From NCBI GenBank assembly GCA_964353355.1, contig CAYGVT010000066.1, positions 9,989 through 73,988 on the forward strand: a DNA stretch of 64,000 nucleotides, read 5' to 3'. The notes beneath the pieces are model-generated. The model was not told where the DNA came from, did not search any database, and was given only the letters and a program-made list of their open reading frames with translations. This DNA is from an uncultured Thermoplasmata archaeon (GTDB taxonomy: Archaea > Thermoplasmatota > DTKX01 > GCA-020343715). Shown piece by piece: positions 17,518 through 59,199 of the stretch (its first letter is position 1; every line of letters starts with the position of its first letter). Made by a program: the position numbers and the translations under genes.

Positions 17518-17518
17518 C

Positions 17519-25627: not shown

Positions 25628-25720
25628 GGTGGCGTGCGGGCGTGCGCCACATTCGCTGAACCCCCCGTAAGCAATATCTCCCCCCTTCGCCATAGGGGGC
25701 ATTCCCCGCGGGAGAGGGAC

Positions 25721-36267: not shown

Positions 36268-36309
36268 AGGCGACAGGTATTTGAACGCCCCATGTCCGTG
36301 CCACTCCGG

Positions 36310-41715: not shown

Positions 41716-42617
41716 TGGCACAGGGACGGTCGTACGCGCTCTTCCTCGGCTGCAACGCCCCGGTCCGCACCCTCAACTACGACATGGCCACCCGCGCAGT
41801 GCTCACGGGGCTCGGCGTGCGCTTCGTGGACCTCGACGGCTTCGCGTGCTGCGGCTACCCCCTCGAGGCCGCCGACCACCTCACGGCCGTCACGATGGCC
41901 GCGCGCAACATCGCGCTCGCGGAGGCCCAGGGGCTGGACGTGCTCGCCATCTGCTCCGCGTGCTCGGGCACGCTCATCCGCGCGCGCCACGAGCTGCTGC
42001 ACGACGAGAGCCTCAGGAAGGATGTCAACGCGCGCCTGCGCAAGGAGCACATCGAGTTCCGCGGCACGGCCAAGGTCGAGCACCTGCTGAGGTTCCTGCA
42101 CGAGGGGGTCGGTATCGAGCGTCTGCGCTCGCACATCACGCGCCCGCTCACCGGATGGCGCGTGGCCGTGCACTACGGCTGCCACTACCTCAAGCCCTCC
42201 GAGGTCGTCGGGGGCGAGGACGACCCCGAGGTGCCGCACACCGTCGACGAGCTCGTCGCGGTCACGGGCGCGACCTCTGTGCCCTACGCCGAGCGCCAGC
42301 TCTGCTGCGGCGGCGGCGTGCTCGGCTACCGCGAGGCCGACTCGCACAAGCTCATCGCCAAGAAGCTCGACTCCGTCGTCGCCGCGGGCGCGGACGCGCT
42401 CGAGGTGCACTGCGCCTTCTGCGCCGTGATGTACGACGGCAACCAGAAGGCGGCCGAGCGCGCCGCGGGCAAGGCCTGGAACGTGCCGGTCCTGGTCTAC
42501 CCCCAGCTCCTGGGCCTCGCGATGGGCATCGGCCCGGAGGAGCTGGGCTTCAGGCACAACCGCGTGAGGGCCCGGGAGCTGCTCGCTCGCCTCGAGGGGG
42601 TGAGCGCGGCGCGATGA
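41715..42617 (+). CDS. hdrB: heterodisulfide reductase subunit B-like (CCG domains)
   Basis: Two CCG cysteine-rich motifs (GFACCGYPLE, QLCCGGGVLG) plus CSACSG and HCAFCA. 301 aa. Confidence 0.88.
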   Translation: MAQGRSYALFLGCNAPVRTLNYDMATRAVLTGLGVRFVDLDGFACCGYPLEAADHLTAVTMAARNIALAEAQGLDVLAICSACSGTLIRARHELLHDESLRKDVNARLRKEHIEFRGTAKVEHLLRFLHEGVGIERLRSHITRPLTGWRVAVHYGCHYLKPSEVVGGEDDPEVPHTVDELVAVTGATSVPYAERQLCCGGGVLGYREADSHKLIAKKLDSVVAAGADALEVHCAFCAVMYDGNQKAAERAAGKAWNVPVLVYPQLLGLAMGIGPEELGFRHNRVRARELLARLEGVSAAR

Positions 42618-45610: not shown

Positions 45611-46371
45611 GCTTCGAGCCGCGCATCGTGGGGGTGCTCTGCAACTGGTGCTCCTACGCGGGCGCCGACCTAGCGGGCACATCGCGCATCCAGTACCCCC
45701 CGAACGTGCGCGTGGTGCGCGTCATGTGCTCGGGGCGGGTCGACCCGCGGCTCGTGGTCGAGGCGCTGCTCTCGGGCGCGGACGGGGTGCTCGCGCTCGG
45801 CTGCCACCCGGGCGACTGCCACTACCAGACCGGCAACCTGGAGGCGCGCGAGAAGTTCGAGGCCCTCAAGGCCGTACTCGCGCTCACGCGCGCCGCGGCG
45901 GGCAGGTTCGACTATGACTGGGTCTCGGCCTCCGAGGGCGCGAGGTTCGCCGAGGTCGTCACCGCCTTCACCGTGCGCGTGCGCGCGCTGGGCCCGGTGC
46001 CGCGCGACGACGCGTCGCGCCGCGAGCTGCGCGCCGCGCTGCGCGAGGCGGGCGAGTTCCGCACGCGGTGGCTCGTGGGCCGCGGCAGGCGCATCCAGCT
46101 CGAGGGCGACGCCTACGGGCAGCCCGTGGACGCCGCCAGGTGGGGGGACATCGTCGGCGCCGTGCTGCGGGAGCAGTTCACGCGCGCGCTCATCCTCGAG
46201 CGCGCGTCCGAGGGCGCCGTGACGGTCGAGGAGCTCGCCTCGCTCACGGGTCTCGAGCCCGCGACCGTGCTGAGGCACGTCCAGAGGCTCCGCGCCAAGG
46301 GCGACATCGCCATCGAGGGGGCGCGCGGCCGGTCGCCGCTGTGGAGGACGACGGGGGTGGTCGGCGAATGA
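45607..46371 (+). CDS. mvhD: MvhD-like [2Fe-2S] protein fused to a C-terminal winged-helix-like domain
   Basis: The N-terminal 140 aa match MvhD (IVGVLCNWCSYAGADLAG...VMCSGRVDP...GCHPGDCHY). The C-terminal about 110 aa contain VTVEELASLTGLEPATVLRHVQRLRAKGDI. GTG start overlaps the hdrA stop. Confidence 0.78.
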   Translation: MSFEPRIVGVLCNWCSYAGADLAGTSRIQYPPNVRVVRVMCSGRVDPRLVVEALLSGADGVLALGCHPGDCHYQTGNLEAREKFEALKAVLALTRAAAGRFDYDWVSASEGARFAEVVTAFTVRVRALGPVPRDDASRRELRAALREAGEFRTRWLVGRGRRIQLEGDAYGQPVDAARWGDIVGAVLREQFTRALILERASEGAVTVEELASLTGLEPATVLRHVQRLRAKGDIAIEGARGRSPLWRTTGVVGE

Positions 46372-49300
46372 CCTCCGCACCGACCGAGAGGCCCAAGGAC
46401 GCCGGGGCCGCACCGACACAGCAGGCCCCCGTGGGCTCAGTGCTCGTGGTGGGCGGGGGCATCGCGGGCATGCAATCCGCGCTCGACCTCGCCGGCGCGG
46501 GATTCCTGGTCCACGTCGTCGAGGAGAGGGGCGGCATCGGAGGGTGGATGTCGCGGCTCGACAAGACGTTCCCCACGAACGACTGCTCCATGTGCATCCT
46601 CGCGCCCAAGCTCGTCGAGGTGGGCCGCCACCCCAACGTGCGCCTGCGCACGAGCGCCCGCCTCCTGGGCCTCGAGGGCGAGGCCGGCGCCTTCGTGGCG
46701 ACCGTGGAGGAGACCCCTAGGTACATCGACCCCGCCAGGTGCACCGGCTGCAGCCTGTGCGCGCAGTGGTGCCCGGTCGATGCCGTGTCCGACTACGACA
46801 AGGGCGTCGGGGACCGCCCCGCGGTGTCGGCGCTGTTCCCCCAGACCGTGCCCCTTGTCTACTCCATCGACCGCGACGCGTGCATCGGCTGCGGGCTGTG
46901 CGCCGAGGTCTGCGCGGCGCGTGCGGTCGACTACGCGCAGAAGGCCAAGGTCGAGCGCGTCCCGGTGGGCGCGGTCGTGCTCGCGGCGGGCTTCGAGGAC
47001 GTGCCCGGCACCGTCCGGCCGGAGTACGGCTGGGGCCGGTTCCCCAACGTGGTGACCTCGCCGCAGTTCGAGCGCATCCTGGCGGCGTCCGGGCCCTACG
47101 CAGGCGAGGTGCTGCGGCCCTCCGACGGCACGCGACCGGCGAGGATCGCCTGGTTGCAGTGCGTGGGCTCGCGCGACGAGCGCCGCGGCAGGCCCTACTG
47201 CTCCTCGGTGTGCTGCACCTACGCCACCAAGGAGGCGGTCATCGCCAAGGAGCACCTCGGCCGCGGCTCGGTCGACTGCCACATCTTCTTCATGGACATG
47301 CGCACCTTCGGCAAGGGCTTCGAGGAGTACTTCGACCGCGCCCGCAACGACTACGGGGTCAGGTACACCAGGTGCCGCATCGGGGAGGTCGTCGAGGACC
47401 CCTCCACGCACGGCCTCGAGGTCGTGTTCGAGGACGAGGGGGGGCGCGCGGGACGCGAGCGGTTCGACATGGTCGTGCTCGCGACCGGCCTGGACCCGCC
47501 AGCGGGGGGGCGCGAGCTCGCGGCCGCGACGGGCGTGGAGCTCGACGCGCACGGGTTCGTGCGCGCGGGCGTGTTCGGCCCCGTGGACACGTCGCGCCCG
47601 GGCGTGTTCGCCTGCGGCGCTCTCTCGGGCCCCAAGGACATCCCCGACACGGTCGCGTCTGCGTCCGCGGCCGCTGCCAGGGCCGCGTCCATCGTCGCGC
47701 CCTCGAGGGGCGCGGAGGTCGTGGCGCCCGTGCTGCCCGAGGAGATCGACGTCGCCTCCCAGGACACGCGCGTGGGCGTGTTCGTGTGCCACTGCGGCAT
47801 CAACATCGGCGGTGTCGTCGACGTGCCCGCGGTCGTCGAGCACGCAAGGCGGCTGCCGGGCGTCGCGTGGGTCGAGGACAACCTCTACACCTGCTCGCAG
47901 GACACGCAGGACCGCATCGTCGAGCGCGTGCGCGAGAGCGGCATCAACCGCGTCGTCGTGGCGTCGTGCACCCCGCGCACGCACGAGCCCCTCTTCCAGG
48001 GCACCATCCGCAAGGCGGGCCTCAACCCGTACCTCTTCGAGCTCGCGAGCCTGCGCGAGCACTCCTCCTGGGTCCATCGGGACGACCCCGAGGCCGCGAC
48101 CCTGAAGGCCATGCGCCTTGTCGACATGGCCGTGGACAAGGTCCGGCGCGCGATGCCCGTGCGAAAGGAGCTCGCGCCCGTCGAGCCCGTGGGCCTTGTC
48201 ATCGGCGGCGGGCCCGCGGGCATGGCCGCCGCCCTCGGCATGGCCGACCAGGGCATCCGCACGGTGCTGGTGGAGCGCTCCGACCGGCTGGGCGGCGGGC
48301 TGCTCCGGCTCCCCCACATCCTCGAGCCCGAGGACCCCGCGCGGGCCCTCCGGGAAATGATAGCGCGCGTCACGTCCTCGCCCCTCGTGGAGGTGCTGCT
48401 GTCCTCCGAGCTCTCCTCCTTCTCCGGGGTCGTGGGCGGCTTCGACGCCGTCGTGCGCACCCCCGCCGGTGAGCGGCCCGTGCGCGTAGGCGCCGTCATC
48501 GTCGCCACGGGCGCGCGCGAGCTCCGGCCCGCGGGCGAGCACCTCTACGGCGAGGACGCGCGGGTCATGACCTCGCTCGAGGCCGGCGAGGCCCTGGAGG
48601 CGGGCACCTTCCCGACCCGGGGTGCGGTCGCGTTCGTCCAGTGCGTCGGCTCGCGCATCCCGGAGCGGCCCCAGTGCTCGCGCGTGTGCTGCTCCACGGC
48701 CGTGAAGAACGCCATCCGCATCAAGGAGCGCGACCCCGAGCGCGAGGTCGTTGTGCTCTACCGCGACGTCCGCACCTACGGCATGCGCGAGGCGGCCTAC
48801 CGGCGCGCGCGGGAGCTCGGCGTCCTGTTCGCGCGGTTCGAGCTCGAGGCCCCGCCCAGGGTCGTGCGCGACGGGGGCTCGCTGCAAATCGAGTGGACGG
48901 ACCTGGTCGCGCGCAGGCGTGTGCGGCGCCGCGTCGGGGCCGTCGTGCTCGCCTCCGCGAGCCTGCCCGCCGAGGGCACGGAGGGGCTCGCGCGCATGCT
49001 CAAGGTGCCGCTCGACGAGCGGGGCTTCCTGCTCGAGGCCCACATGAAGATCCGCCCGCTGGACTTCGCCACCGACGGCGTGTTCCTCGCGGGCGCATGC
49101 CACTCCCAGAGGTTCCTCGACGAGGCCATCGCGCAGGGCCTCGGGGCGGCCTCGCGCGCCTCGACCATCCTGGCCAACCCCACGGTGCTGACGGAGGGGC
49201 TGCCCGCGCGCGTGGACGAGGCGAGGTGCACCGGCTGCGGCACGTGCGAGGCAAACTGCGCGTACGAGGCCATCAAGGTCGACCCCGCGCGGGGGGTCGC

Positions 49301-49445
49301 GGTCGTGAGCGGCGTGCTGTGCAAGGGCTGCGGAACTTGCGCGTGCGTGTGCCCGTCGGGCGCGGTGTCGCTCCCGCGGTACGAGAAGGAGCAGCTGTGC
49401 GCGATGATAGAGGACGCGGTTCTGCCGGAGAGGGGGGTGGGCTGA
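46368..49445 (+). CDS. hdrA: HdrA-like flavoprotein, second tandem double unit (1025 aa)
   Basis: Same architecture as 42614..45610: VLVVGGGIAGMQSALDLA, LDKTFPTNDCSMC, Fd CTGCSLCAQWCP/CIGCGLCAEVC, internal VGVFVCHCGINIGGVVD, second Rossmann GLVIGGGPAGMAAALGMA, C-terminal CTGCGTCEANC/CKGCGTCACVCP. Confidence 0.88.
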   Translation: MTSAPTERPKDAGAAPTQQAPVGSVLVVGGGIAGMQSALDLAGAGFLVHVVEERGGIGGWMSRLDKTFPTNDCSMCILAPKLVEVGRHPNVRLRTSARLLGLEGEAGAFVATVEETPRYIDPARCTGCSLCAQWCPVDAVSDYDKGVGDRPAVSALFPQTVPLVYSIDRDACIGCGLCAEVCAARAVDYAQKAKVERVPVGAVVLAAGFEDVPGTVRPEYGWGRFPNVVTSPQFERILAASGPYAGEVLRPSDGTRPARIAWLQCVGSRDERRGRPYCSSVCCTYATKEAVIAKEHLGRGSVDCHIFFMDMRTFGKGFEEYFDRARNDYGVRYTRCRIGEVVEDPSTHGLEVVFEDEGGRAGRERFDMVVLATGLDPPAGGRELAAATGVELDAHGFVRAGVFGPVDTSRPGVFACGALSGPKDIPDTVASASAAAARAASIVAPSRGAEVVAPVLPEEIDVASQDTRVGVFVCHCGINIGGVVDVPAVVEHARRLPGVAWVEDNLYTCSQDTQDRIVERVRESGINRVVVASCTPRTHEPLFQGTIRKAGLNPYLFELASLREHSSWVHRDDPEAATLKAMRLVDMAVDKVRRAMPVRKELAPVEPVGLVIGGGPAGMAAALGMADQGIRTVLVERSDRLGGGLLRLPHILEPEDPARALREMIARVTSSPLVEVLLSSELSSFSGVVGGFDAVVRTPAGERPVRVGAVIVATGARELRPAGEHLYGEDARVMTSLEAGEALEAGTFPTRGAVAFVQCVGSRIPERPQCSRVCCSTAVKNAIRIKERDPEREVVVLYRDVRTYGMREAAYRRARELGVLFARFELEAPPRVVRDGGSLQIEWTDLVARRRVRRRVGAVVLASASLPAEGTEGLARMLKVPLDERGFLLEAHMKIRPLDFATDGVFLAGACHSQRFLDEAIAQGLGAASRASTILANPTVLTEGLPARVDEARCTGCGTCEANCAYEAIKVDPARGVAVVSGVLCKGCGTCACVCPSGAVSLPRYEKEQLCAMIEDAVLPERGVG

Positions 49446-51233
49446 GTGCCTGGGCTCAGGAGACAGGGAGGGCTGCGCAGGCTCGTGCTGCTGCCGCCGT
49501 GCGACGAGGAGTTCGCGAAGGCCGTGGACCTGGGGGGCCTCGCGCGCGACCTGGAGGCCGTGGGCGTGGCCTCGCGCGCCGATGCGCGGCTGTGCGGCCC
49601 GGGCCGCGACGCCGTGGTCGCCGAGCTCGTGAGGGCGACCGGGGCGGAGGCCATCGTCGTGGGCGGGCCCAGCCCCCGGACGCACGGAGACGAGTGGCGG
49701 CGCGCCGCCAAGGGCGCGGGCGTGCCTCCCGACCGGGTCGAGGTCGTGCCCCTCTGGGGCCAGTGCGCGCACCTGGCCGGTGCCCCGGGCGCCGCGGCGC
49801 GGCGCGCGCGCATCATGCTCGAATCCGCGCTCGCGCGCGTCGACCTGGGCACCGACCGCGCGGCGCGCTCGGTCGCGGCGTCGCAGTCGGTCCTCGTCAT
49901 AGGCGGCGGCGTCGCGGGCATGCAGACGGCCGTCGACCTCGCCGACATGGGGCACCGTGTGCACCTGGTCGAGCGCGGGGACGCGCTGGGGGGCAGGGCC
50001 TTCGTGCTCTCTCGCACCCACCCGACGCACGAGTGCAAGCCCGACGGGTGCTGCCCCGAGAGCTGCCGCGACTGCGTCCTCACCCCAAAGCCGGACATGG
50101 TCGCCACGCGCGCGGACATCGAGGTTCTGCTGGGGAGCGAGGTTGTGTCCATCGCCGGTGGCATCGGCGGATACCGCGCGACGGTGCGCACGCCGCAGGG
50201 CGAACGCGCGGTCGACGTGGGCGCCATCGTGGTGGCGACCGGCACGGTCCTCTTCGACCCCGCGGAGATGCCCGAGCTGCTGCCAGGGCACCCGGACGTG
50301 GTGACGTCGCTCGGGCTCGAGGCGATGCTCGACCGCGCCCGCAAATCCCAGCGCCCGCTCGCCAGGCCCTCCGACGGCGCCGTCCCGGCCAGGGTCCACT
50401 TCCTCCAGTGCGTGGGCTCGCGCGACACGCACCACGGCACGCGCGAGTGCTCGATCGTCTGCTGCACCTACGCGGTGGGGCAGGCGCTCGAGCTCAAGCG
50501 CACCCTGCCGCCAGGCAGCCGCGTCGCGGTCCACTACATCGACATGCGAGGGCCCTACCGCGGCTTCGAGGACCTCTACCTCGAGGCCCAGGAGGCCGGG
50601 GTGCTGTTCCTGCACGGACGGGTGGCGCAGGTCGAGCCCCGCGGCGGCGCGCTGCTCGTCGAGGGCGAGGAGGGCACGACGGACGAGCCGACCACGTGGG
50701 AGGCAGACCTGGTCGTGCTCTCGGTCGGCCAGCTGCCGTCGCCCGGCACCAGGGAGCTCGGTGCGATGCTGGGCGTGCCCTTCGACGAGGACGGCTTCCT
50801 CATGGAGTACAACGCCCACTGGGGCGTTCTGGAGCGGCGCGGGGTGCACGTCGTGGGCTGCGCCGCGGGGCCGCGCGGCATCCGGTACTCGGTGCGCGAC
50901 GCGCGAGAGGCCGCGCTCGCCGTCCACGTGGCGCTGCGCCACGCCAGCCTCGAGCTGGGGCTCGGCGTGGCCGAGGTTGACGACGGGAGGTGCACGGGCT
51001 GCGGTCAGTGCGTGGAGGCGTGCGAGTACGGCGCGGTGCGCCTCGAGGTCCGGACGGACCCGGCCACAGGGAGCAGGAGGCAGCTCGCGGTCGTCGACGC
51101 GAGGCTCTGCCGCGGCTGCGCCAACTGCGCCGTCGCCTGCCCGAGCACGGCCATCACGATGCCGGGCTTCACCGACGAGCAGATGGTGAGGGAGATAGAG
51201 CTCTCCGCGCAGCCGCGCGCGGAGGGGGGATGA
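49446..51233 (+). CDS. hdrA: HdrA-like flavoprotein, single unit (595 aa) with divergent N-domain lacking the CHCG motif
   Basis: Rossmann VLVIGGGVAGMQTAVDLA. C-terminal CTGCGQCVEACEYGAV/CRGCANCAVACP. GTG start immediately after the upstream stop. Confidence 0.78.
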   Translation: MPGLRRQGGLRRLVLLPPCDEEFAKAVDLGGLARDLEAVGVASRADARLCGPGRDAVVAELVRATGAEAIVVGGPSPRTHGDEWRRAAKGAGVPPDRVEVVPLWGQCAHLAGAPGAAARRARIMLESALARVDLGTDRAARSVAASQSVLVIGGGVAGMQTAVDLADMGHRVHLVERGDALGGRAFVLSRTHPTHECKPDGCCPESCRDCVLTPKPDMVATRADIEVLLGSEVVSIAGGIGGYRATVRTPQGERAVDVGAIVVATGTVLFDPAEMPELLPGHPDVVTSLGLEAMLDRARKSQRPLARPSDGAVPARVHFLQCVGSRDTHHGTRECSIVCCTYAVGQALELKRTLPPGSRVAVHYIDMRGPYRGFEDLYLEAQEAGVLFLHGRVAQVEPRGGALLVEGEEGTTDEPTTWEADLVVLSVGQLPSPGTRELGAMLGVPFDEDGFLMEYNAHWGVLERRGVHVVGCAAGPRGIRYSVRDAREAALAVHVALRHASLELGLGVAEVDDGRCTGCGQCVEACEYGAVRLEVRTDPATGSRRQLAVVDARLCRGCANCAVACPSTAITMPGFTDEQMVREIELSAQPRAEGG

Positions 51234-51234
51234 C

Positions 51235-51687
51235 ATGACCACCGAGGCCGCAACCACGCCCGAGGGCAAGGAGTGGAGACCGCGCATAGTGGGGTTCCTG
51301 TGCACCTGGTGCTCCTACACGGGCGCGGACCTCGCGGGTGTGTCGAGGCTGCAGTACACGCCCGAGTTCATCCCCATCAGGGTCATGTGCTCGGGGGCCG
51401 TGGACCCGGCCTACGTCATCAAGGCCCTCCTCGAGGGCGCGGACGGCGTGCTCGTCGGCGGCTGCCACCCGGGCGACTGCCACTACCTCACGGGCAACTA
51501 CAAGGCGCGCCGCCGGCTCGCGGTGCTCAAGGAGCTGCTCGAGGGCATGGGCATCGACCCTAGGAGGCTGCGGCTCGAGTGGATCTCCGCCTCCGAGGGC
51601 GGCAAGTTCGCCGCGACCGTCACCGAGATGGAACGCGAGCTTCGGGCGCTCGGCCCCAACCCGCTCCCCAAGCAGGAGCTGCTATAG
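51235..51687 (+). CDS. mvhD: methyl-viologen-reducing hydrogenase delta subunit-like protein (MvhD)
   Basis: 150 aa. IVGFLCTWCSYTGADLAG, VMCSGAVDP, GCHPGDCHY. Confidence 0.85.
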   Translation: MTTEAATTPEGKEWRPRIVGFLCTWCSYTGADLAGVSRLQYTPEFIPIRVMCSGAVDPAYVIKALLEGADGVLVGGCHPGDCHYLTGNYKARRRLAVLKELLEGMGIDPRRLRLEWISASEGGKFAATVTEMERELRALGPNPLPKQELL

Positions 51688-51690
51688 GGG

Positions 51691-52776
51691 GTGCCGAGCA
51701 TGGTGTACGCGTTCAGGTGGGCGCTGGCGGCGGGCGAGGACAGGCAGTCCGCGGCCCGACGGCTGCTGCAGGAGGCGCTGAGGAGGGGGGCCGTCGGGGC
51801 GGTGCTCGTGCCCGCGGAGCTGCCCGGGGGCGCGGGCGTGGCGTACGCGCTCGCCACCCGGCCAGAGCGGCTCGCGTCGGCCGTGCCGGTCGCGCGCGCG
51901 ATGCCCCAGTTCGGCCCCCAGGACCTCGTGCGCTCGACCGAGCCGGGAGGGGGGCCGGTGCGCATCGCCGCGGTGCTCAAGCCCTGCGAGGCTCGCGCCG
52001 TCGTCGAGCTCATAAAGCTCAAGCAGGTGGACCCCGCCAGCCTCGTGCTCATCTCCCCGGACTGCCCCGGCACGGTCGAGCTCGAGGACTACGCGGCGAC
52101 CGGTGGCACGCCCGAGAAGGACCTCCCCCTGCGGCTCGCGTGCCGCATCTGCCGGCGGCCCGTCGCCGGCAAGGACGTGGACGTCGCGCTCGGGACGGCC
52201 GGGGCCAGGGACGACGAGCTGCTGCTCGTCGCCCAGACCGAGCGGGGCCGCGCCTTCCTGGAGGCGAGCGGCGCCCAGGCAATCGAGATTCCGCACGGCC
52301 GCGCCCACGCGGTCGCGCGGCTCGTTGCCAGGGGCGAGGAGGCCCACGATGCGCAGGAGAGGGCCTCGCGCGAAAAGTACTCGCGGCCCGGGGCGATGGA
52401 ATCCTCGCTCGCGACGTGCATCAAGTGCATGAACTGCATGAACGTGTGCCCCGTCTGCTACTGCAAGGAGTGCCTGTTCTACACGGACGCGTTCAACCCC
52501 ACCGCTGGCACGCTGGCCGACAAGGCCCGGCGCAGGGGCGTGGTGCGGGTGCCCACCGAGACCGTGCAGTTCCACCTCACGCGCATGGCGCACGTGATGA
52601 CAGCGTGCGTGATGTGCGGCCAGTGCGAGAGCGCGTGCCCCACCGGCGTGCCGCTCCTCGAGATGTACGCTGGCATCAACCGGCGCATCCAGGCCCTGTT
52701 CGACTACGAGGCTGGCAGGTCGGTCGAGGAGGCCCCGCCCTTCACCGAGTTCCGGGAGGACGAGGACTTCAGCTAA
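51691..52776 (+). CDS. FrhB/FdhB-family (coenzyme F420 hydrogenase/dehydrogenase beta-like) iron-sulfur flavoprotein-like subunit with 2x[4Fe-4S] ferredoxin motifs
   Basis: CIKCMNCMNVCPVCYC and CVMCGQCESACP. N-terminal about 200 aa resemble the FrhB_FdhB N-terminal domain. Terminal gene of the hdr cluster. Confidence 0.65.
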   Translation: MPSMVYAFRWALAAGEDRQSAARRLLQEALRRGAVGAVLVPAELPGGAGVAYALATRPERLASAVPVARAMPQFGPQDLVRSTEPGGGPVRIAAVLKPCEARAVVELIKLKQVDPASLVLISPDCPGTVELEDYAATGGTPEKDLPLRLACRICRRPVAGKDVDVALGTAGARDDELLLVAQTERGRAFLEASGAQAIEIPHGRAHAVARLVARGEEAHDAQERASREKYSRPGAMESSLATCIKCMNCMNVCPVCYCKECLFYTDAFNPTAGTLADKARRRGVVRVPTETVQFHLTRMAHVMTACVMCGQCESACPTGVPLLEMYAGINRRIQALFDYEAGRSVEEAPPFTEFREDEDFS

Positions 52777-53563: not shown

Positions 53564-53965
53564 CTAGTGGTGGAGCGTCTCGAGGAACGCCTCGTAGGCG
53601 TTCGCGTCCATGAGCTCGCCAACCGCCTTGAGGTCGGCGGGCTTCAGGAGGACCAGCCAACCGGCCCCGTAGGGGTCGGCGTTGATGGTCTCGGGGGCGG
53701 AGAGCAGCTTGTCGTTGGCCTTCTCGACGACGCCCGGGACGGGGCAGTAGACGTCGGACGCGGACTTGACGGACTCCACGACGCCCAGCGCCTCCTCCTT
53801 GCCGAACTTCGCGCCAGGGGTCGGCAGCTCGACGTAGACGATGTCGCTGAGCGAGTCCTGCGCATAGTCCGTGACGCCGATGCGTACCATGGCGCCCTCG
53901 ACCTTGACCCACTCGTGGCTCTTGGTGTACCGGTAGGTTGCCTCGACCTTGCTCATGGCCTCCAC
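53564..53965 (-). CDS. gcvH: glycine cleavage system H protein (lipoyl carrier)
   Basis: 133 aa. TKSHEWVKVEG, GVTDYAQDSLSDIVYVELP, lipoyl-lysine context GVVESVKSASDVYCPVPG. Confidence 0.9.
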   Translation of the reverse strand: MEAMSKVEATYRYTKSHEWVKVEGAMVRIGVTDYAQDSLSDIVYVELPTPGAKFGKEEALGVVESVKSASDVYCPVPGVVEKANDKLLSAPETINADPYGAGWLVLLKPADLKAVGELMDANAYEAFLETLHH

Positions 53966-54031
53966 CTGGTATTTGTGCGGTATGGATTGGGCATTTATCT
54001 AGCTTTTGGGGCCCTCCCGGAGGGGCCTGGC

Positions 54032-57000
54032 TCAGCCCTTCGGCGCGGGTCCCTTGGTCAGGTCGGCCTGCTTCCTCGCGGCCGCGTCCTCGGGGGGCGC
54101 GTCGTCGGGCTTCGCGGGGTCGCGGAACCGCATGAGGACGACGGCCTCCTCGGCCCAGGTGATCCTGTCGCCGAGCTTGAGGGAGGACACGGCCTTGGGC
54201 TCCTCCTTGCCCCTCGGCGGCACGAGGACGCCCAGGGGGGTACCGGGCTCCGTGAACCGGTCCTCGAGGAGGGCCTGGCCCACCTGCCGCCCGTCGGGGA
54301 GGCTCGCGCAGCTCGTGACGTGGCCCACGACCTGGCCCTGGCGGTTGGCGACGGGCGAGCCGGGCTTGACGACGGGTATGCCGCGCTTGCCCATGCGGAA
54401 CCTGGCCAGCCGCATCGTGCGCTTGGGGTCCCTCTCGGCCATGGGGCCGCGCCCGACGAAGAATGGCTTGTGGAACCGCACGAACTGCGGGTAGCCCGCC
54501 TCGATGGGGTTGATGCCGTGCTCGCCCGCGAGCTCGTGGCCGTAGAGCGGGTAGCCTGCCTCGGTCCTCGTCGAGTCGCGCGCGCCCAGGCCCGCGACCA
54601 CGAGGCCGTGGGGCCTCCCGGCCTTGAGCAGGGACTCCCACAGCTGCGGCGCGTCGGACGGGTGGACGAACAGCTCGAAGCCCACCGGCTCGCCGGTGTA
54701 GCCGGTCCTGGCGATGATGACGTCAACGCCTGCTACCGCGCCCTGGCACAGGTTGGTGCGGCGCAGCGAGGTCACCCTCTGGGCCAGAGACGCGTCCTGG
54801 ACGCACTCGAGCAGGACCTTGGTCGAGACCGGGCCCTGGATGCTGATGTCGACGCGCTGGTCGCGGCCTGCCTTCGGGTCCTTGAGGTTGCGCAGCTCGA
54901 ACGAGTCGCAGTCGATCTCGACCCATGGGCGGCCGCCGTCGATGACGTACTGCTTCGAGATGACCGCCTGGAGCCAGTCCCAGTCCTTCTCGGCGTTGGC
55001 CGCGTTGACCACGACCATGAAGTTGTCAGGGGCGCGCCGGTAGATCCACAGGTCGTCGATGGCGCCACCGTCGGGGCCGAGCAGGATGCCGTAGGAGGAC
55101 TCGCCCGGGTGCAGGCGCGGCACGAACGGCGTCGTGACCAAGTCGAGGAACCGCTCGGCGCCCTCGCCCCTGACCTCGAACACGCCCATGTGGGAAACGT
55201 CGAACAGCACGCCCGTCGTGCGGCACGCCTGGTGCTCCTCCGATATCTTGGTGTACCACACCGGCATCAGCCAGCCCGCGAAGGGCACGATGGTCTTGGT
55301 GCGCTCCTTGTGCCACTCGTAGAGGCACGTCTTGCGCGGCTCGACACCGGGGTCCCTCCAGGACCACCGCTTCTTGTCGGACTCGGGCCTGAGCATGCCG
55401 CACACGACGCCCTGGCCGATGAAGTACGGCTTCTGGGGCGTGACCATGCCCGCCGGGGCGTTGAGCACGTTGTCGCCCTCCGGCTCGAGCATCTCACCGC
55501 GCACCGGCGACGCGCCCGTCCCCAGCAGCGCCTCCCAGACGACCTGCGCGTCCTCGACGCGGCAGACGACCTCGAAGCCGTCCGAACCGCCCCAGGTAGA
55601 CCTGTTGACGAGGGCCTTGCCCTTGCCCACCTCGACCTCGGCCGCCTGGCCCAGGTTGAGGCCCTTCGGGCCGGTGAGCCTGCCCATGGCCTTGATGGCA
55701 CCCTTGCCCTTGAGGGCCATGAGCGCGACCTTGCGAGCCGCGGGGTGGCTGAGGTCCTCGACCACGACCGGACCGTCGACCTTGCGGAGCAGGTCCTCGC
55801 CGTCGATGAGCGTGTAGCCGTCGGACACGTACCGCAGGTGTCCCACGAGGCGGTCGTGGCGGCCCCTGTGCGCGATGAGGAGGTACCGGTCCTCGCCGGC
55901 CCCCGTCGGGGGTTCCCGGACGACGACCACGTCGTCGATGACGCGGCCGTCCTTGTCGAGCACGTATGCGCGGGCGGACTGGTGCGGCTTGAGCCTCCAG
56001 ACGTCGGCCGTAACCACACCCTGCACGAACATCCGCGCTCGCTCGCCGGTGACGCGGCACACGCCATGGGCCGTCGCGTCGACCGCCTGCACGCTCTCGC
56101 CCTTGACGGGCCGGCCCTGGAACAGCGGCATCGCCTCGCCCGTGTCCTGGCCGGGGATGCGGAAGTAGTGCGGGTAGCCAGAGATGATCTGGTCGGGCCT
56201 CAGCACGCCCGTGTCCCGCATGAGCTGCTCGACCTCGCGCTTGGTCTGCTCGAACATCATCACGTCGACCTTCGCGCGGCCGCGCGGCTTCCGCGCGCCG
56301 TGGTAGTGGTAGACGTGCATGCCCTTGAGCACGCGCGCGATGATGCGCCCGAGCCGGCGGAAGTCGTCGGGGCCCCAGCCAAGCTGGGTCATCCAGGTCG
56401 TTCCCAGGCGGATGGCCGTCGGGTGGACGGCGCTGTCGTCGCCGGCCTTGGTGTTCTTGTTGAGCGTGATGCCGCACATGTCCAGGATGCGGGACACTAT
56501 CTCGCCCCTCGCCGTCTCGCCCGTGATGGTCGGCACGCGGTTGAGGTCGACCATCACGTAGTGGCAGTCCGTGCCACCGTAGGCCAGGGGGACGCCCTCG
56601 GCCTCGAGCGTCTCGCCGAGGACGCGCGCGTTCTCCTTGACGGCGCGCTGCATGAGGCGGAACGCCTCGGTCTTGGCGATGCCGAAGCACACTGCCTTGC
56701 CCGCGATGGCGTTGATGTGCGGACCGCCCTGCTCGCCGGGGAAGACCGCGAAGTCGAGCCGCTTGCCGAGCTCGGGGTCCGTCGACATGATGACCGCGCC
56801 GCGGGGGCCGCACATGGTCTTGTGGGTGGTGAACGTGATGACGTCGGCGATGCCCACCGGCGTGGGGAACTCCCCGGCCGCTACCAGGCCAGCGGGGTGC
56901 GCGATGTCGGCCAGCAGGTGGGCCCCGACGTCGGACGCGATGTCCTTGAAGGCCTTCCAGTCGATGGTGCGCGGGTAGGCCGAGTAGCCCGCGATGAGGA

Positions 57001-57637
57001 GCCTGGGCCTGGCCTTGCGTGCGGCCACCTCGATGAGGTCGTAGTTGAGGATGCCCGTCGCGGGGTCGACGGTGTAGGGCGCGACGTGGTGGTACCGTCC
57101 CGACCTGTTCACGGGGGAGCCGTGCGTGAGGTGGCCGCCCGAGTCCAGCGCCATGCCCATCGTGGTCTCGCCGGGGCTCACGAGGGCCATGTACACCGCG
57201 TTGTTGGCGGCCGCGCCCGAGAGCGGCTGGACGTTGACGAAGATGTCCTCGGCCTTGACCGCCTTGGTCGCGAAGGCCTCGGCGCACCGGCGCTGGGCCA
57301 GCGTCTCAATGAAGTTGATGTAGTCGCAGCCCTTGTAGTACCGGCGGTCTGTGTAGCGCCGGTGGTAGGCGAGCTGGTGGTCGAAGTCCATGAGCCTTCC
57401 GGTGTCCCAGAGGGACATGCGCAGCGACGGCAGGCCCTCGGCGTAGAGGTTCGTGAAGGTGCTCGCGACCGCGTCATGGACGGACCTGGGGCAGATGCTC
57501 TCCGATGCGATGAGGATGACCTTGCGCCGCTGGCGCTCGTCCTCGAGCCTCACGAGCTGCGCCACGGCCGGGTCGACCGCGTCGTTCAACGGGAGCTCCA
57601 GGTACGACTTGTAGGAACGTGGGGGTTGTGAGTCCAT
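54032..57637 (-). CDS. fusion protein: serine hydroxymethyltransferase domain, then a GcvT/YgfZ-like folate-binding domain, then a complete aminomethyltransferase (GcvT) domain
   Basis: 1201-aa continuous ORF. SHMT motifs LIASESI, NVQPLSGAAANNAVY, GGHLTHGSPVN, PLP-lysine TTHKTMCGPRGAVI, VFPGEQGGP. The middle about 300 aa are GcvT-like. C-terminal GcvT motifs LFDVSHMGVFEVRG, ARDSTRTEAGYPLYGHE. Confidence 0.82.
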   Translation of the reverse strand: MDSQPPRSYKSYLELPLNDAVDPAVAQLVRLEDERQRRKVILIASESICPRSVHDAVASTFTNLYAEGLPSLRMSLWDTGRLMDFDHQLAYHRRYTDRRYYKGCDYINFIETLAQRRCAEAFATKAVKAEDIFVNVQPLSGAAANNAVYMALVSPGETTMGMALDSGGHLTHGSPVNRSGRYHHVAPYTVDPATGILNYDLIEVAARKARPRLLIAGYSAYPRTIDWKAFKDIASDVGAHLLADIAHPAGLVAAGEFPTPVGIADVITFTTHKTMCGPRGAVIMSTDPELGKRLDFAVFPGEQGGPHINAIAGKAVCFGIAKTEAFRLMQRAVKENARVLGETLEAEGVPLAYGGTDCHYVMVDLNRVPTITGETARGEIVSRILDMCGITLNKNTKAGDDSAVHPTAIRLGTTWMTQLGWGPDDFRRLGRIIARVLKGMHVYHYHGARKPRGRAKVDVMMFEQTKREVEQLMRDTGVLRPDQIISGYPHYFRIPGQDTGEAMPLFQGRPVKGESVQAVDATAHGVCRVTGERARMFVQGVVTADVWRLKPHQSARAYVLDKDGRVIDDVVVVREPPTGAGEDRYLLIAHRGRHDRLVGHLRYVSDGYTLIDGEDLLRKVDGPVVVEDLSHPAARKVALMALKGKGAIKAMGRLTGPKGLNLGQAAEVEVGKGKALVNRSTWGGSDGFEVVCRVEDAQVVWEALLGTGASPVRGEMLEPEGDNVLNAPAGMVTPQKPYFIGQGVVCGMLRPESDKKRWSWRDPGVEPRKTCLYEWHKERTKTIVPFAGWLMPVWYTKISEEHQACRTTGVLFDVSHMGVFEVRGEGAERFLDLVTTPFVPRLHPGESSYGILLGPDGGAIDDLWIYRRAPDNFMVVVNAANAEKDWDWLQAVISKQYVIDGGRPWVEIDCDSFELRNLKDPKAGRDQRVDISIQGPVSTKVLLECVQDASLAQRVTSLRRTNLCQGAVAGVDVIIARTGYTGEPVGFELFVHPSDAPQLWESLLKAGRPHGLVVAGLGARDSTRTEAGYPLYGHELAGEHGINPIEAGYPQFVRFHKPFFVGRGPMAERDPKRTMRLARFRMGKRGIPVVKPGSPVANRQGQVVGHVTSCASLPDGRQVGQALLEDRFTEPGTPLGVLVPPRGKEEPKAVSSLKLGDRITWAEEAVVLMRFRDPAKPDDAPPEDAAARKQADLTKGPAPKG

Positions 57638-57792
57638 CGGGACCGCCCTCTTGGGCTATCCAGTCATTCCGGCTGGACGGCCTGGCATCCACGGAATCCC
57701 ACGCCCGCCCATAAAGGTTTGCCTGAGGCGACAGAAAGCCTCATGAGCGCATTGCGCCATGCCCCGGGAAGGCCGCCCTGGGGGCCCGCGTC

Positions 57793-59199
57793 GTGGCAGT
57801 TGGACGGACACAGTACCTCCGGGCGATGGACCGCATCTACGACCTGCCCCGGTTCCTCGTCGGCCGGTCGGAGGTCCACCGCCCCACGACCGAGGAGAGG
57901 CTCGAGCGCATCGAGGTGACCCGCCGGTTCCTCGACGAGGCCTGCCCCGGCTGGCGCGGCATCAGGGTCGCCCATGTGGGCGGCACCTCCGGCAAGGGCT
58001 CGACCGCCTGGATGCTCGCGGCCATGCTCTCGCGGCGCCACCGCACGGGTCTCGTGACATCTCCGCACCTGTTCGACATGCGCGAGCGCATCCGCGTCGA
58101 CATGGAGCCCATATCGAGGGAGGACCTGGTGCGCGTGTTCGAGGGGACGGTGGTGCCCGTGGCGGAGCGCCTCTGCCGCGACGACCCCAGGTTCGCGCTG
58201 CGGTTCCCCGAGGTCATCCTGGCCACCGCGTTCGCCCGCTTCCTGGAGGTCGGCTGCGAGTGGGCAGTCGTCGAGGTCGTGGTCGGGGGGCGGTACGACC
58301 AGTCCAACGTCGTGCGCCCCGCGGCCTCGCTCGTGACGAACGTGAGCCGCGACCACGTGCACCAGCTCGGCGGCCGCATCGAGCAGATTGCGTTCCACAA
58401 GGCCGGCATCGCCAAGCCCGGCGTCCCCCTGTACACCTCCGAGACCAAGGCCACGGTCATGCGCGTGCTGCGGGAGGAGGCCGGGCGGGTGGGCGCGCCC
58501 CTCGTCCAGGTCGCGCCCGAACGGGCCCATGGGCGCGCCATGCGGTTCAGGGGACGCGAGTGGGAGCTCGGCATGAGGGGCGGCCACCAGCGCTTCAACG
58601 CCGCGCTCGCGCTCGCGGTCGCGCTCGACGTCGCGCGCGTCCCCGCGGCCGACTGTGCCTCGGCGCTCGCCTCCGCGCGCATGCCCGGCAGGTTCGACGA
58701 GGTCGCCCCCCGCGTGTTCGCGGACATCGCGCACAACCCGGCCAAGGTGCGCGCGATGGCCGAGACCGCGCAGGAGGAGCTCGCCGGCCGGCGCGCGGTC
58801 CTCGTGGTGGGCATGGCGCGCCGCAAGGAGCACGAGGCGATGCTGCGGCCCCTTGTACCCCTCGCGGACAGCATCGTGTTCACGCGCGCCCGGTACAGGG
58901 GTGCGGACCCCAGGCGCCTGCGGAGGCTGTGGGTCGGTATGGGCGGCGACCCGTGCCGCGCGTCTGTCGAGCCGGACGCGCACAAGGCGTTCGCCAGGGC
59001 GAGGAGGCTCGCGGGGAGGGACGGCGTCGTGGTGGTGACGGGTTCGACCTTCGTCGTGGACGAGGCGCTCAACCCCGAGGCATGGCTCATGCGGGCCAAC
59101 GCGGAGTACATGCCGCCCGGCAAGGGCCAGGGGGGCGGGCGGGCGCGCCGCCCCGCGAGGCGCGGTCGAGAGGCGACCCCCGCGGCACGGCTCCGGTGA
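57793..59199 (+). CDS. folC: folylpolyglutamate synthase / dihydrofolate synthase (Mur ligase family)
   Basis: P-loop HVGGTSGKGST. TSPHLFDMRERI, VVEVVVGGRYD and SRDHVHQLG of FolC. 468 aa. Confidence 0.83.
   Translation: MAVGRTQYLRAMDRIYDLPRFLVGRSEVHRPTTEERLERIEVTRRFLDEACPGWRGIRVAHVGGTSGKGSTAWMLAAMLSRRHRTGLVTSPHLFDMRERIRVDMEPISREDLVRVFEGTVVPVAERLCRDDPRFALRFPEVILATAFARFLEVGCEWAVVEVVVGGRYDQSNVVRPAASLVTNVSRDHVHQLGGRIEQIAFHKAGIAKPGVPLYTSETKATVMRVLREEAGRVGAPLVQVAPERAHGRAMRFRGREWELGMRGGHQRFNAALALAVALDVARVPAADCASALASARMPGRFDEVAPRVFADIAHNPAKVRAMAETAQEELAGRRAVLVVGMARRKEHEAMLRPLVPLADSIVFTRARYRGADPRRLRRLWVGMGGDPCRASVEPDAHKAFARARRLAGRDGVVVVTGSTFVVDEALNPEAWLMRANAEYMPPGKGQGGGRARRPARRGREATPAARLR

What the first reader, a model, noticed from the sequence alone, without database searches (positions are those of the whole stretch)
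53564..59199. Folate one-carbon module with a 1201-aa SHMT-GcvT-GcvT fusion flanked by gcvH and folC
A single uninterrupted ORF joins three parts: a full serine hydroxymethyltransferase (PLP lysine in TTHKTMCGPRG), a partial GcvT/YgfZ-like folate-binding domain, and a complete aminomethyltransferase. It carries a roughly 20-aa insertion relative to bacterial SHMT. gcvH lies immediately downstream and folC is divergent. Coupling serine-to-glycine and glycine-to-CH2-THF transfer in one polypeptide would channel methylene-THF. I do not recall this domain fusion as a described architecture. No gcvP (P-protein) is in the window.
Basis: seen in the sequence. Interest (0 to 1): 0.72.

Follow-up and report, generated by a model that had tools for sequence, protein, structure and literature searches.

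The report
Natural SHMT–T-protein fusion enzyme
This archaeal gene really does fuse serine hydroxymethyltransferase, a degenerate copy of the glycine-cleavage T-protein and a complete T-protein into one 1201-residue enzyme, and the same fusion is widespread in uncultured anaerobes, labelled only "GcvT" in databases and apparently never studied.

Summary
ORF 54032-57637 (-) is uninterrupted and encodes three modules:
- a catalytically complete SHMT (aa 1-440), with a conserved 23-aa insertion;
- a degenerate T-protein fold lacking the C-terminal barrel (aa ~516-760);
- a complete glycine-cleavage T-protein (aa 768-1153).

gcvH follows on the same strand and folC is divergent. No gcvP or lpd is in the window.

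It is not a mis-assembly. The identical protein was assembled independently from three sequencing runs. A family-specific motif found at least 569 stretches in species-representative genomes. All 80 loci fetched carry the fusion or its contig-truncated start, and no locus shows an SHMT module ending without a T part. Hosts include Thermoplasmata, Anaerolineae/Chloroflexota, Aerophobetes and Planctomycetota.

gcvPA/PB and gcvH are the only neighbours recurring across phyla, so the fusion occupies the T-protein slot of the glycine cleavage system.

The most likely role is a bifunctional SHMT/T-protein sharing one folate pool. Passing methylene-THF between the two sites requires them to run in opposite directions (2 Gly <-> Ser + CO2 + NH3 + 2[H]); this is inferred, not shown.

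Eight literature searches and the PDB searches run found no description of the fusion. Verdict: a real, widespread, uncharacterised variant of known enzymes.

The parts
54032..57637 (-). Fusion gene, 1201 aa: SHMT, then degenerate T-like domain, then T-protein
   Evidence: Uninterrupted ORF. Pfam and NCBIfam domains. Identical protein in independent assemblies. Full-length homologues.
56318..57637 (-). SHMT module, aa 1-440
   Evidence: PF00464 E 1.7e-115. NF000586 401.9 bits against cut-off 335. About 40% identity to solved SHMTs, with TM-score 0.94 normalised to the target. Invariant in the family: Y65, E67, Y101, H169, D244, H247, T270-T274 including K273, R279, R410.
57356..57424 (-). Family-specific SHMT insertion, aa 72-94, between the Tyr/Glu (YAEG) and RYY(K)GC active-site/folate-site segments
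   Evidence: Gap in the alignment to 1kkj: query 72->95 corresponds to chain 58->55. It is as conserved as the SHMT core (58% in-clade, 50% to distant members). R94, Y95, D97, R98 and R99 are invariant. Low pLDDT in the monomer model.
56819..56821 (-). Codon of the PLP Schiff-base lysine K273 (TTHKT)
   Evidence: Aligned to K226 of B. stearothermophilus SHMT. Invariant in alignment A1.
56093..56317 (-). Linker / SHMT C-terminal extension, aa 441-515
   Evidence: Two strands plus a helix (aa 441-475), then a poorly conserved coil. Y445, R454 and K456 are invariant. The extension also aligns to the 496-aa SHMT variant model NF010094, query 158-475 to model 170-483.
55358..56092 (-). Middle degenerate T-protein-like domain (T'), aa ~516-760, without the C-terminal barrel
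54179..55336 (-). Complete glycine-cleavage T-protein module, aa 768-1153, including the C-terminal barrel
   Evidence: TIGR00528 275.2 bits against cut-off 235.85; NF001567 328 against 300. Aligned end to end with 1woo and 1yx2. Y849, D862, Y866, Y980, E988 and R1020 correspond to Thermotoga T-protein Y83, D96, Y100, Y188, E195 and R227, and all are invariant.
53564..53965 (-). gcvH (lipoyl carrier H-protein), co-directional and immediately downstream; probable ATG start at 53956
   Evidence: PF01597 E 7e-40; NF002270 157.3 bits against cut-off 117. Lipoyl-Lys motif ESVKS is visible in the translation. Conserved downstream of the fusion in clade relatives L001, L008 and L088-L092.
57793..59199 (+). 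folC (folylpolyglutamate / dihydrofolate synthase), divergent from the fusion
   Evidence: TIGR01499 253.1 bits against cut-off 162.65. The same divergent position is seen in L001, L088 and L091.

Best explanation
The gene encodes a bifunctional folate enzyme. An N-terminal serine hydroxymethyltransferase is fused, through a degenerate and probably non-catalytic T-protein-like domain, to a complete aminomethyltransferase (T-protein of the glycine cleavage system).

Shown:
- The fusion is real and fixed across several hundred species.
- Both outer modules keep every catalytic and folate-binding residue checked.
- The middle module has the T-protein fold but has lost T-protein motifs.
- gcvH is co-transcribed in this clade, and gcvH-gcvPA-gcvPB sit beside the fusion in other phyla with no separate gcvT within 10 kb.

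Inferred:
- The T module takes the aminomethyl group from lipoyl-GcvH (charged by a GcvP encoded elsewhere) and makes or uses 5,10-methylene-THF.
- The SHMT module interconverts serine and glycine using the same THF/CH2-THF pair.
- Because SHMT is an obligate dimer whose active site uses residues from both subunits (established knowledge), the protein should be at least a dimer, (SHMT-T'-T)2.
- The selective advantage is most plausibly that the two CH2-THF-handling sites share a local, polyglutamylated folate pool (folC is adjacent). One site would regenerate the folate form that the other consumes when they run in opposite directions: 2 glycine <-> serine + CO2 + NH3 + 2[H]. This is the reaction pair of plant mitochondria and of anaerobic glycine/serine metabolism.
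- T' would serve as a rigid spacer or scaffold, and possibly as a folate-tail or GcvH docking surface.
For: Reality of the fusion: (identical protein from three runs). At least 569 motif matches were found in species genomes. Every locus among the 80 kept whose contig reaches far enough carries the whole fusion, and no locus shows an SHMT module ending without a T part.

SHMT identity and residues.

T-protein identity and residues.

Middle-domain fold and degeneracy. It is under relaxed but real constraint: 60% identity in-clade and 31% to distant members, against 71-79% and 54-58% for the catalytic modules. It has family-specific invariant residues (G531, R533, D612, K619, G622, P623).

Rigid multi-domain model: pLDDT 86.9, pTM 0.84.

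GCS partnership:
- gcvH is adjacent in the window and present in 14 loci.
- GcvPA/PB lie within 7 kb in 13 of 80 loci spanning Aerophobetes, Chloroflexota, Planctomycetota, Thermodesulfobacteriota and others. They are present in 8 of the 28 loci with at least 4 kb on both sides.
- The L007 operon is aminotransferase, fusion, transketolase, gcvH, gcvPA, gcvPB.
- No separate gcvT or glyA was found within 10 kb in any locus.

Weak support for the Gly->Ser direction: one Anaerolineae clade has glycerate-kinase-type (DUF4147/MOFRL), GlcF/HdrD-like CCG and LarA-like genes next to the fusion, and ten loci have an AspAT-type aminotransferase upstream.

The GDC+SHMT pairing (2 Gly -> Ser + CO2 + NH3 + NADH) and the shared need for polyglutamyl-THF are stated in PMC8146403.
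Against: No activity, oligomer state or channelling has been measured for any member.

Neighbourhoods are mostly not conserved: the top neighbour cluster is present in only 13 of 80 loci, and many fusions stand alone, e.g. L002. The operon evidence therefore covers a minority of loci.

gcvP and lpd are not in the window, and I could not check the rest of this genome.

In the catabolic direction (Ser -> Gly -> CO2) and in the reductive glycine direction, both sites act on CH2-THF in the same sense, so the fusion would bring no site-to-site hand-over. The advantage might then be only stoichiometric co-expression.

The middle domain's two deletions in this clade argue against a conserved ligand-binding role for it.
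Confidence: 0.7

Rival explanations
1. The fusion is functionally neutral 'gene gluing'. Both enzymes work exactly as their stand-alone forms, and the fusion only guarantees equal expression. The middle domain is a decaying remnant of an internal duplication that now acts as a linker.
For: The middle domain is the least conserved part and has suffered two deletions in this clade. Neighbourhoods are weakly conserved. Nothing tested here demonstrates channelling.
Against: The three-module order and the T' domain are kept across archaeal and bacterial phyla, at about 45% overall identity, without loss of T'. T' has invariant family-specific residues and is folded with high confidence in the full-length model, with block pLDDT mostly around 90 and pTM 0.84. 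A plain linker would be expected to shrink or vanish.
Confidence: 0.2
2. The SHMT-like module is not a housekeeping SHMT. It would be a specialised PLP aldolase or transaldolase, or an SHMT for another C1 carrier or substrate, whose product is handed to the T-type folate domains, as in DMGDH, sarcosine oxidase or TMAO demethylase where a T-like domain captures a C1 unit made at another site.
For: A family-wide 23-aa insertion sits right between the Tyr/Glu and Tyr-Tyr segments that line the folate and active site. T-like domains do serve as C1-capture modules in the multi-domain enzymes matched here: TMAO demethylase, DMGDH and SoxA.
Against: The SHMT score is above the curated cut-off (401.9 against 335). 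All catalytic, carboxylate-binding (R410) and folate-site residues checked are invariant. The T module passes the GcvT equivalog cut-off and is linked to gcvH and gcvP, not to amine or methyl-donor genes.
Confidence: 0.06
3. P-protein-independent glycine cleavage. The fused PLP module, rather than GcvP, would decarboxylate glycine and load the aminomethyl group on lipoyl-GcvH beside the T module.
For: No gcvP in the 64-kb window although gcvH is adjacent. Both are PLP enzymes that bind glycine (general knowledge).
Against: gcvPA/gcvPB are the most frequent functionally related neighbours of the fusion in other lineages (13 of 80 loci) and lie in the same operon in L007. The SHMT module keeps folate-site residues that such a role would not need. 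No precedent is known to me.
Confidence: 0.03
4. Assembly or annotation artefact: two or three adjacent genes are joined by a sequencing or assembly error.
For: None found.
Against: The identical ORF was recovered from three independent runs. Single-HSP, in-frame, full-length matches occur in dozens of genomes from different phyla and projects.
Confidence: 0.01

Closest known systems
Stand-alone bacterial SHMT (GlyA; e.g. B. stearothermophilus 1KKJ, E. coli 1DFO)
   Same: About 38-40% identity and the same fold (TM-score 0.94 normalised to the target). The PLP lysine and all catalytic and folate-site residues checked are present. The score is above the NCBIfam cut-off.
   Different: A conserved 23-aa insertion at aa 72-94, a C-terminal extension, and about 760 further residues of T-type domains.
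Glycine cleavage T-protein (GcvT; Thermotoga 1WOO, B. subtilis 1YX2, E. coli 3A8I)
   Same: The C-terminal module aligns end to end, keeps Tyr83/Asp96/Tyr100/Tyr188/Glu195/Arg227 equivalents, passes the TIGR00528 cut-off, and is encoded next to gcvH.
   Different: It is the last third of a 1201-aa protein. It has a ~30-aa insertion (aa ~895-925) that is mirrored in the middle domain. It is preceded by a paralogous degenerate copy.
Plant mitochondrial glycine decarboxylase + SHMT couple (photorespiration)
   Same: The same two activities, sharing polyglutamyl-THF, with net 2 Gly -> Ser + CO2 + NH3 + NADH (PMC8146403).
   Different: In plants they are separate proteins. Here T-protein and SHMT are one polypeptide, in anaerobic archaea and bacteria.
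Multi-domain enzymes with a T-protein-like folate domain (DMGDH/DMGO, heterotetrameric sarcosine oxidase alpha plus gamma, TMAO demethylase)
   Different: In those enzymes the partner is a flavin amine oxidase or a demethylase and the T-like domain does not use GcvH. Here the partner is a PLP SHMT and the T module is a true GcvT.
Bifunctional folate enzymes with inter-site transfer (DHFR-TS; formiminotransferase-cyclodeaminase)
   Same: Two consecutive or complementary folate reactions on one polypeptide. Polyglutamate tails matter in FTCD (my recollection, not tested here).
   Different: Different folds and reactions. Transfer between sites is demonstrated for those enzymes, and only hypothesised here.

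Membership tests
Serine hydroxymethyltransferase (EC 2.1.2.1; PF00464 / NF000586) | Profile score above the curated cut-off | tested here: met
   PF00464 386.3 bits (GA 27); NF000586 401.9 bits (cut-off 335).
Serine hydroxymethyltransferase (EC 2.1.2.1; PF00464 / NF000586) | PLP Schiff-base lysine in the T-T-H-K-T motif, plus the Asp/His that hold the pyridine ring | tested here: met
   K273 in TTHKT; D244, H247 and H169 (GGHLTHGS). All are invariant in 72 sequences.
Serine hydroxymethyltransferase (EC 2.1.2.1; PF00464 / NF000586) | Substrate-carboxylate Arg and folate/active-site Tyr-Glu-Tyr (E. coli R363, Y55, E57, Y65) | tested here: met
   R410, Y65, E67 and Y101 are invariant. A 23-aa insertion lies between E67 and Y101.
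Serine hydroxymethyltransferase (EC 2.1.2.1; PF00464 / NF000586) | Obligate dimer; Ser + THF <-> Gly + CH2-THF activity | not testable with these tools
   Only a monomer could be modelled. No assay is possible.
Glycine cleavage T-protein (EC 2.1.2.10; TIGR00528 / NF001567) | Profile score above the equivalog cut-off | tested here: met
   TIGR00528 275.2 against 235.85; NF001567 328 against 300.
Glycine cleavage T-protein (EC 2.1.2.10; TIGR00528 / NF001567) | Catalytic Asp and folate-binding residues (Thermotoga Y83, D96, Y100, Y188, E195, R227) | tested here: met
   Y849, D862, Y866, Y980, E988 and R1020, from the alignment. Invariant.
Glycine cleavage T-protein (EC 2.1.2.10; TIGR00528 / NF001567) | C-terminal barrel domain (PF08669) | tested here: met
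   Pfam gives 24.3 bits, just under GA 25.9. However, the alignments to 1woo and 1yx2 run to chain residues 343-348, and the model shows the beta-strands at 1075-1168.
Glycine cleavage T-protein (EC 2.1.2.10; TIGR00528 / NF001567) | Genomic association with gcvH and gcvP | tested here: met
   gcvH is 66-75 nt downstream in the window. gcvPA/PB occur in 13 and gcvH in 14 of about 80 related loci. gcvP of this genome was not seen; it is not in the window.
T-protein as an enzyme, applied to the MIDDLE domain (aa ~516-760) | T-protein fold | tested here: met
T-protein as an enzyme, applied to the MIDDLE domain (aa ~516-760) | Catalytic and folate motifs (FDVSHMG, VNAAN, GYTGE, GLGARD.LR.EAG) and the C-terminal barrel | tested here: not met
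   In the window these read DATAHG, AHRGRH and TWGGSDG. The Arg-containing segment and the N-terminal GW.MP..Y segment are deleted. There is no barrel. Only the 'IDD' pair (D568, D569) is kept.
Channelling bifunctional folate enzyme (as DHFR-TS, FTCD) | Demonstrated transfer of the folate intermediate between the two sites without bulk equilibration | not testable with these tools
   Needs kinetics or a structure with ligands.

The most novel reading that the evidence does not exclude
The fusion is a self-contained glycine<->serine converter. A captive polyglutamyl-folate would shuttle between the T and SHMT sites of a (SHMT-T'-T)2 dimer, with T' as the anchor for the folate tail or for GcvH.

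In Thermoplasmata, the lipoyl-GcvH it uses would be re-oxidised or reduced not by NAD-linked dihydrolipoyl dehydrogenase but by an HdrA2/HdrB/MvhD-type flavin-based electron-bifurcating complex. Glycine cleavage or glycine synthesis would then be tied to ferredoxin-level redox chemistry.

Leads for this reading:
- An HdrA2-MvhD gene lies directly downstream of the fusion in four Thermoplasmata loci.
- In the window, a 12-kb gcvH2 + HdrB + 3x HdrA2 + 2x MvhD cluster is inserted next to gcvH.
- No lpd is in the window.
Probability: 0.12. Interest if true: 0.85.

Novelty: new variant of a known kind. Interest (0 to 1): 0.55.

Why it matters
SHMT and the glycine cleavage system are the two main entry and exit points of one-carbon units into folate metabolism. 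They are also the last two steps of the reductive glycine pathway, which is being engineered for formate and CO2 assimilation.

A natural, phylogenetically widespread covalent fusion of SHMT with the T-protein would be the first physical coupling of these two systems. It would provide a ready-made test case for folate channelling and a candidate part for pathway engineering.

It also matters for annotation. Hundreds of MAGs carry this gene labelled only 'GcvT', or 'SHMT, partial'. Automated metabolic reconstructions may therefore score glyA as missing in these genomes, or overlook the link between the two activities.

The recurrent Hdr/MvhD neighbours in Thermoplasmata raise the separate, testable question of what re-oxidises lipoyl-GcvH in these anaerobes.

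Tried and rejected
(1) Mis-assembly: rejected.

(2) I first flagged L139 ('VQPLSG') as replacing the PLP-stacking histidine. On recounting E. coli numbering, the stacking His126 lies in GGHLTHGS (window H169, invariant). L139 is a different, variable position, so there is no catalytic deviation.

(3) The genome scan with the middle-domain alignment A2 failed because no stretch was conserved enough. I replaced it with the SHMT-insertion alignment A3.

(4) The AFDB Foldseek library was unavailable, so I could not list UniProt models with the same architecture.

(5) Eight literature searches, six of them aimed at the fusion and at HdrA/GcvH, plus two full-text checks, found no description of an SHMT-GcvT fusion. 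This is absence of evidence in an open-access library only.

(6) Search for split forms (SHMT with the insertion plus a separate T'-T protein) among the 50% representatives was inconclusive. Most shorter hits begin inside SHMT and look like contig-end fragments.

(7) No glycine or THF riboswitch, and nothing notable from the promoter and terminator scans, around the operon.

(8) I could not determine whether this genome, or the complete genomes CP070739.1 and CP070751.1, also encode stand-alone glyA, gcvT, gcvP or lpd. Only +/-10 kb around the fusion is retrievable.

Full report
OBSERVATION

The window is a ~70% GC stretch of an archaeal genome. An MCM helicase is encoded at 25628-27889, and the best protein hits are named Thermoplasmata.

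ORF 54032..57637 on the minus strand is 1201 codons long, starts with ATG and has no internal stop. Its codon-position GC (GC3 0.96) marks it as the true reading frame.

Pfam finds SHMT (E 1.7e-115), GCV_T (E 3.8e-98, two stretches) and a near-threshold GCV_T_C. NCBIfam places the N-terminal part above the SHMT cut-off (401.9 against 335). It places the C-terminal part above both GcvT cut-offs: NF001567 328 against 300, and TIGR00528 275.2 against 235.85.

gcvH (53564..53965, minus strand) lies 66-75 nt downstream on the same strand. folC (57793..59199, plus strand) is divergent. Both pass curated cut-offs. None of the window ORFs selected as likely coding is a P-protein or a dihydrolipoyl dehydrogenase. 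The only pyridine-nucleotide disulfide oxidoreductase of ordinary size (12447-13442) is thioredoxin-reductase-like. Every factual element of the finding is therefore confirmed.

NOT AN ARTEFACT

The identical 1201-aa sequence is on record on four contigs. The three shown come from independent sequencing runs (ERR4334727, ERR3804373, ERR3804374) and have the same neighbours.

A word-indexed search returned full-length homologues of ~1170-1280 aa at 90% down to 43% identity. Where named, they come from Thermoplasmata, Methanomassiliicoccales, Chloroflexota/Anaerolineae and Aerophobetes.

An exhaustive HMMER search with the middle region alone, which is specific to the fusion, found 113 cluster representatives at E <= 1e-10 in a library clustered at 50% identity.

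A scan of one genome per GTDB species used two motifs taken from the SHMT module (Y.DRR[YF]YKG and QPLSGAAAN). In every one of the 80 loci kept whose contig reaches far enough, the whole fusion aligns to the query over residues ~20-1171, usually as one in-frame segment. The remaining loci are cut by contig ends. No locus shows an SHMT module ending without a T part. All of these genomes are MAGs of uncultured organisms.

ANATOMY

(i) SHMT module, aa 1-440.
- It is about 40% identical to solved bacterial SHMTs.
- Mapped on B. stearothermophilus and E. coli SHMT, these residues are all present and invariant across 72 family members: the Schiff-base lysine (K273 in TTHKT), the PLP-ring residues (H169, D244, H247), R279, the carboxylate-binding R410, and the Tyr-Glu...Tyr set (Y65, E67, Y101).
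- A 22-23-aa insertion (aa 72-94) sits between E67 and Y101. It is as conserved as the SHMT core. It is poorly modelled in the monomer, as expected for a segment at the SHMT dimer interface; that last point is my inference.
- I at first mistook L139 for a replacement of the PLP-stacking histidine. Recounting shows this is a different, variable position.

(ii) Linker and extension, aa 441-515.
- It also aligns to the C-terminal part of the 496-aa SHMT variant model NF010094.

(iii) Middle domain T', aa ~516-760.
- It has 27% identity to the protein's own C-terminal module (E 2e-13).
- phmmer to the B. subtilis T-protein gives E 3e-11.
- It lacks the C-terminal barrel.
- Most family members keep the N-terminal 'GW.MP..Y' segment, a 'TNPAN' motif and 'PAG...R..LR.E.GLP.Y'. 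The window's clade has deleted the first and last of these. Its T' region is a constant 295 residues, against a median of 341 elsewhere.
- The T-protein motifs FDVSHMG and GYTGE are degenerate throughout the family.
- T' nevertheless has invariant family-specific residues, within the motif LSDGY.LFD..D...K..GPVVVEDL. It is 60% identical within the clade and is confidently folded in the full-length model.

(iv) T module, aa 768-1153.
- It aligns end to end with the Thermotoga and Bacillus T-proteins.
- The equivalents of Thermotoga Y83, D96, Y100, Y188, E195 and R227 (Y849, D862, Y866, Y980, E988, R1020) are invariant.

Both T-type modules carry an insertion at the same place in the fold, which suggests an internal duplication. 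This is my inference.

The full-length AlphaFold model (aa 1-1171, 72-sequence alignment) has mean pLDDT 86.9 and pTM 0.84, indicating a defined inter-domain arrangement. No solved structure covers more than one module: the best TM-score normalised to the query is 0.34.

CONTEXT

Within the window's clade (64-90% identity) the order folC <-> fusion-gcvH-Trm112 is conserved.

Across the 80 species loci I clustered all neighbouring ORFs within 7 kb without prior assumptions and annotated the recurrent clusters.
- The most frequent cluster is GcvP (PA/PB), in 13 loci from at least five phyla. It is in 8 of the 28 loci that have at least 4 kb on both sides.
- GcvH occurs in 14 loci by tblastn.
- An AspAT-type class I/II aminotransferase lies upstream in 10 loci, and a transketolase in 9.
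- In Aerophobetes the operon reads aminotransferase, fusion, transketolase, gcvH, gcvPA, gcvPB. The fusion stands where gcvT normally stands.
- No extra gcvT or glyA is present within 10 kb in any locus.
- Other recurrent neighbours are clade-specific synteny. One Anaerolineae clade has glycerate-kinase-type (DUF4147/MOFRL), GlcF/HdrD-like and LarA-like genes nearby. This would fit a glycolate/glycine -> serine -> glycerate route, but it counts as a single evolutionary observation.
- Many fusions stand alone.

MECHANISM

Shown: two catalytically intact modules, an intact gene across phyla, and linkage to gcvH and gcvP.

Inferred: the protein is both the SHMT and the T-protein of its host. It should be at least dimeric through the SHMT module.

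SHMT (Ser -> Gly) and the T-protein (Gly -> CO2) both generate CH2-THF, and in the reductive glycine direction both consume it. A hand-over of CH2-THF and THF between the two sites is possible only when they run in opposite senses, giving 2 Gly <-> Ser + CO2 + NH3 + 2[H]. That is the GDC/SHMT couple of plant mitochondria (PMC8146403).

The divergent folC fits a need for polyglutamylated folate, which both enzymes use. It is equally compatible with plain co-regulation of folate genes.

I put 0.7 on 'bifunctional SHMT/T-protein serving the glycine cleavage system', and about 0.35-0.4 on genuine inter-site folate coupling as the reason for the fusion. The main rival (0.2) is a neutral co-expression fusion with T' as a relic linker. 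Against it stand the retention of T' and of its own invariant residues over very large evolutionary distances.

A specialised non-SHMT role for the PLP module (0.06) and a P-protein-independent system (0.03) are disfavoured by the residue conservation and by the gcvP neighbours. An assembly artefact (0.01) is excluded.

COMPARISON AND NOVELTY

Each outer module is an ordinary member of its family; the membership tests are met. The middle module shares the fold but fails the catalytic-motif test for a T-protein.

The architecture as a whole resembles, in logic, multi-domain enzymes that attach a T-like folate domain to a C1-producing domain (DMGDH, sarcosine oxidase alpha plus gamma, TMAO demethylase). 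It also resembles bifunctional folate enzymes such as DHFR-TS or FTCD, but it is a member of none of them.

Public databases name the family only 'glycine cleavage system aminomethyltransferase GcvT', 'glycine cleavage system T protein' or 'serine hydroxymethyltransferase, partial'. Six full-text searches aimed at the fusion and two paper checks found no description of it, and none of the PDB entries found in my searches covers more than one module.

I therefore rate it a new variant of a known kind. It is real, widespread and uncharacterised, but built from well-understood parts. Interest 0.55.

SIDE OBSERVATION

Relative to syntenic relatives L001 and L091, the window carries a ~12-kb insertion (40432-52776) between PNP_UDP and Trm112/gcvH. 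It contains:
- a second bona fide gcvH (138 bits against a cut-off of 117);
- an HdrB-like CCG protein;
- three HdrA2-like flavoproteins;
- two MvhD domains;
- an FrhB/ferredoxin-like protein.

In four other Thermoplasmata-type loci (L004, L005, L015, L022) a 784-aa HdrA2-MvhD gene follows the fusion directly.

A GcvH encoded beside HdrA2B2C2 has been proposed as the disulfide carrier for HdrB in Culexarchaeia (PMC9723716).

Lipoyl-GcvH might therefore be coupled here to an Hdr-type complex instead of Lpd. This is the most novel reading the evidence leaves open. It is untested.

Noticed in passing
window 40432-52776: A ~12-kb cluster is inserted next to gcvH, relative to syntenic relatives L001 and L091. 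It holds a second bona fide gcvH (138-aa form, 40432-40848, minus strand, lipoyl-Lys kept), an HdrB-like CCG protein (40905-42617), three HdrA2-like flavoproteins (41705-45610, 45918-49445, 49446-51233), two MvhD domains (45607-46371 with an HTH; 51235-51687) and an FrhB/ferredoxin-like protein (51691-52776). It resembles the GcvH + HdrA2B2C2 association discussed for Culexarchaeia (PMC9723716).
   Followed up: partly
L004 13703-16066; L005 13797-16151; also L015 and L022: A 784-787-aa HdrA2-type protein with a fused MvhD domain lies immediately downstream of the fusion gene, on the same strand, in four Thermoplasmata/Methanomassiliicoccales loci. It is 33-40% identical to the window's HdrA-like genes over the main aligned segments.
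   Followed up: partly
L067 9944-13228 and 15573-18707 (Chloroflexota JBMOMT010000064.1): Two tandem copies of the whole SHMT-T'-T fusion in one genome, each about 46% identical to the window protein.
   Followed up: no
L033, L041, L047, L050, L055 (Planctomycetota-type and unclassified MAGs): Shorter variants of the fusion (~1050-1090 aa). The region after residue ~630 aligns only weakly, to the query's middle domain. This may be a sub-family with a different or reduced middle/T arrangement.
   Followed up: no
L025, L026, L037, L043, L051, L068 (Anaerolineae clade): The fusion is flanked by a LarA-like gene (downstream, same strand), a glycerate-kinase-type DUF4147/MOFRL gene and a GlcF/HdrD-like CCG + 4Fe-4S gene. 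This hints at 2-hydroxyacid/glycolate-glycine-serine-glycerate metabolism. It is one clade only.
   Followed up: partly
L013 7420-8607 and homologues in L027, L038, L042, L048, L073, L079: A ~396-aa ORF with no Pfam match lies directly upstream of the fusion, on the same strand, in seven loci.
   Followed up: no
window 5860-8931 (+): A 1023-aa ORF in the coding frame (GC3 0.91) with no Pfam hit, followed by a 2-hydroxyglutaryl-CoA dehydratase D-component-like gene (8932-10095).
   Followed up: no
window 16441-19131 and 36268-37503: An archaeal mevalonate-pathway set: an HMG-CoA synthase-like gene, a thiolase and a ChsH2-type OB-fold protein in a row, and an aconitase-X (AcnX) gene further on. 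A histidine/phenylalanine ammonia-lyase-type gene is at 789-2393.
   Followed up: no
protein ids P0030, P0063, P0102, P0114, P0100, P0016: Public records name these ~1200-aa fusion proteins only 'glycine cleavage system aminomethyltransferase GcvT', or 'serine hydroxymethyltransferase, partial'. The second activity is invisible in annotation-based metabolic reconstructions.
   Followed up: yes
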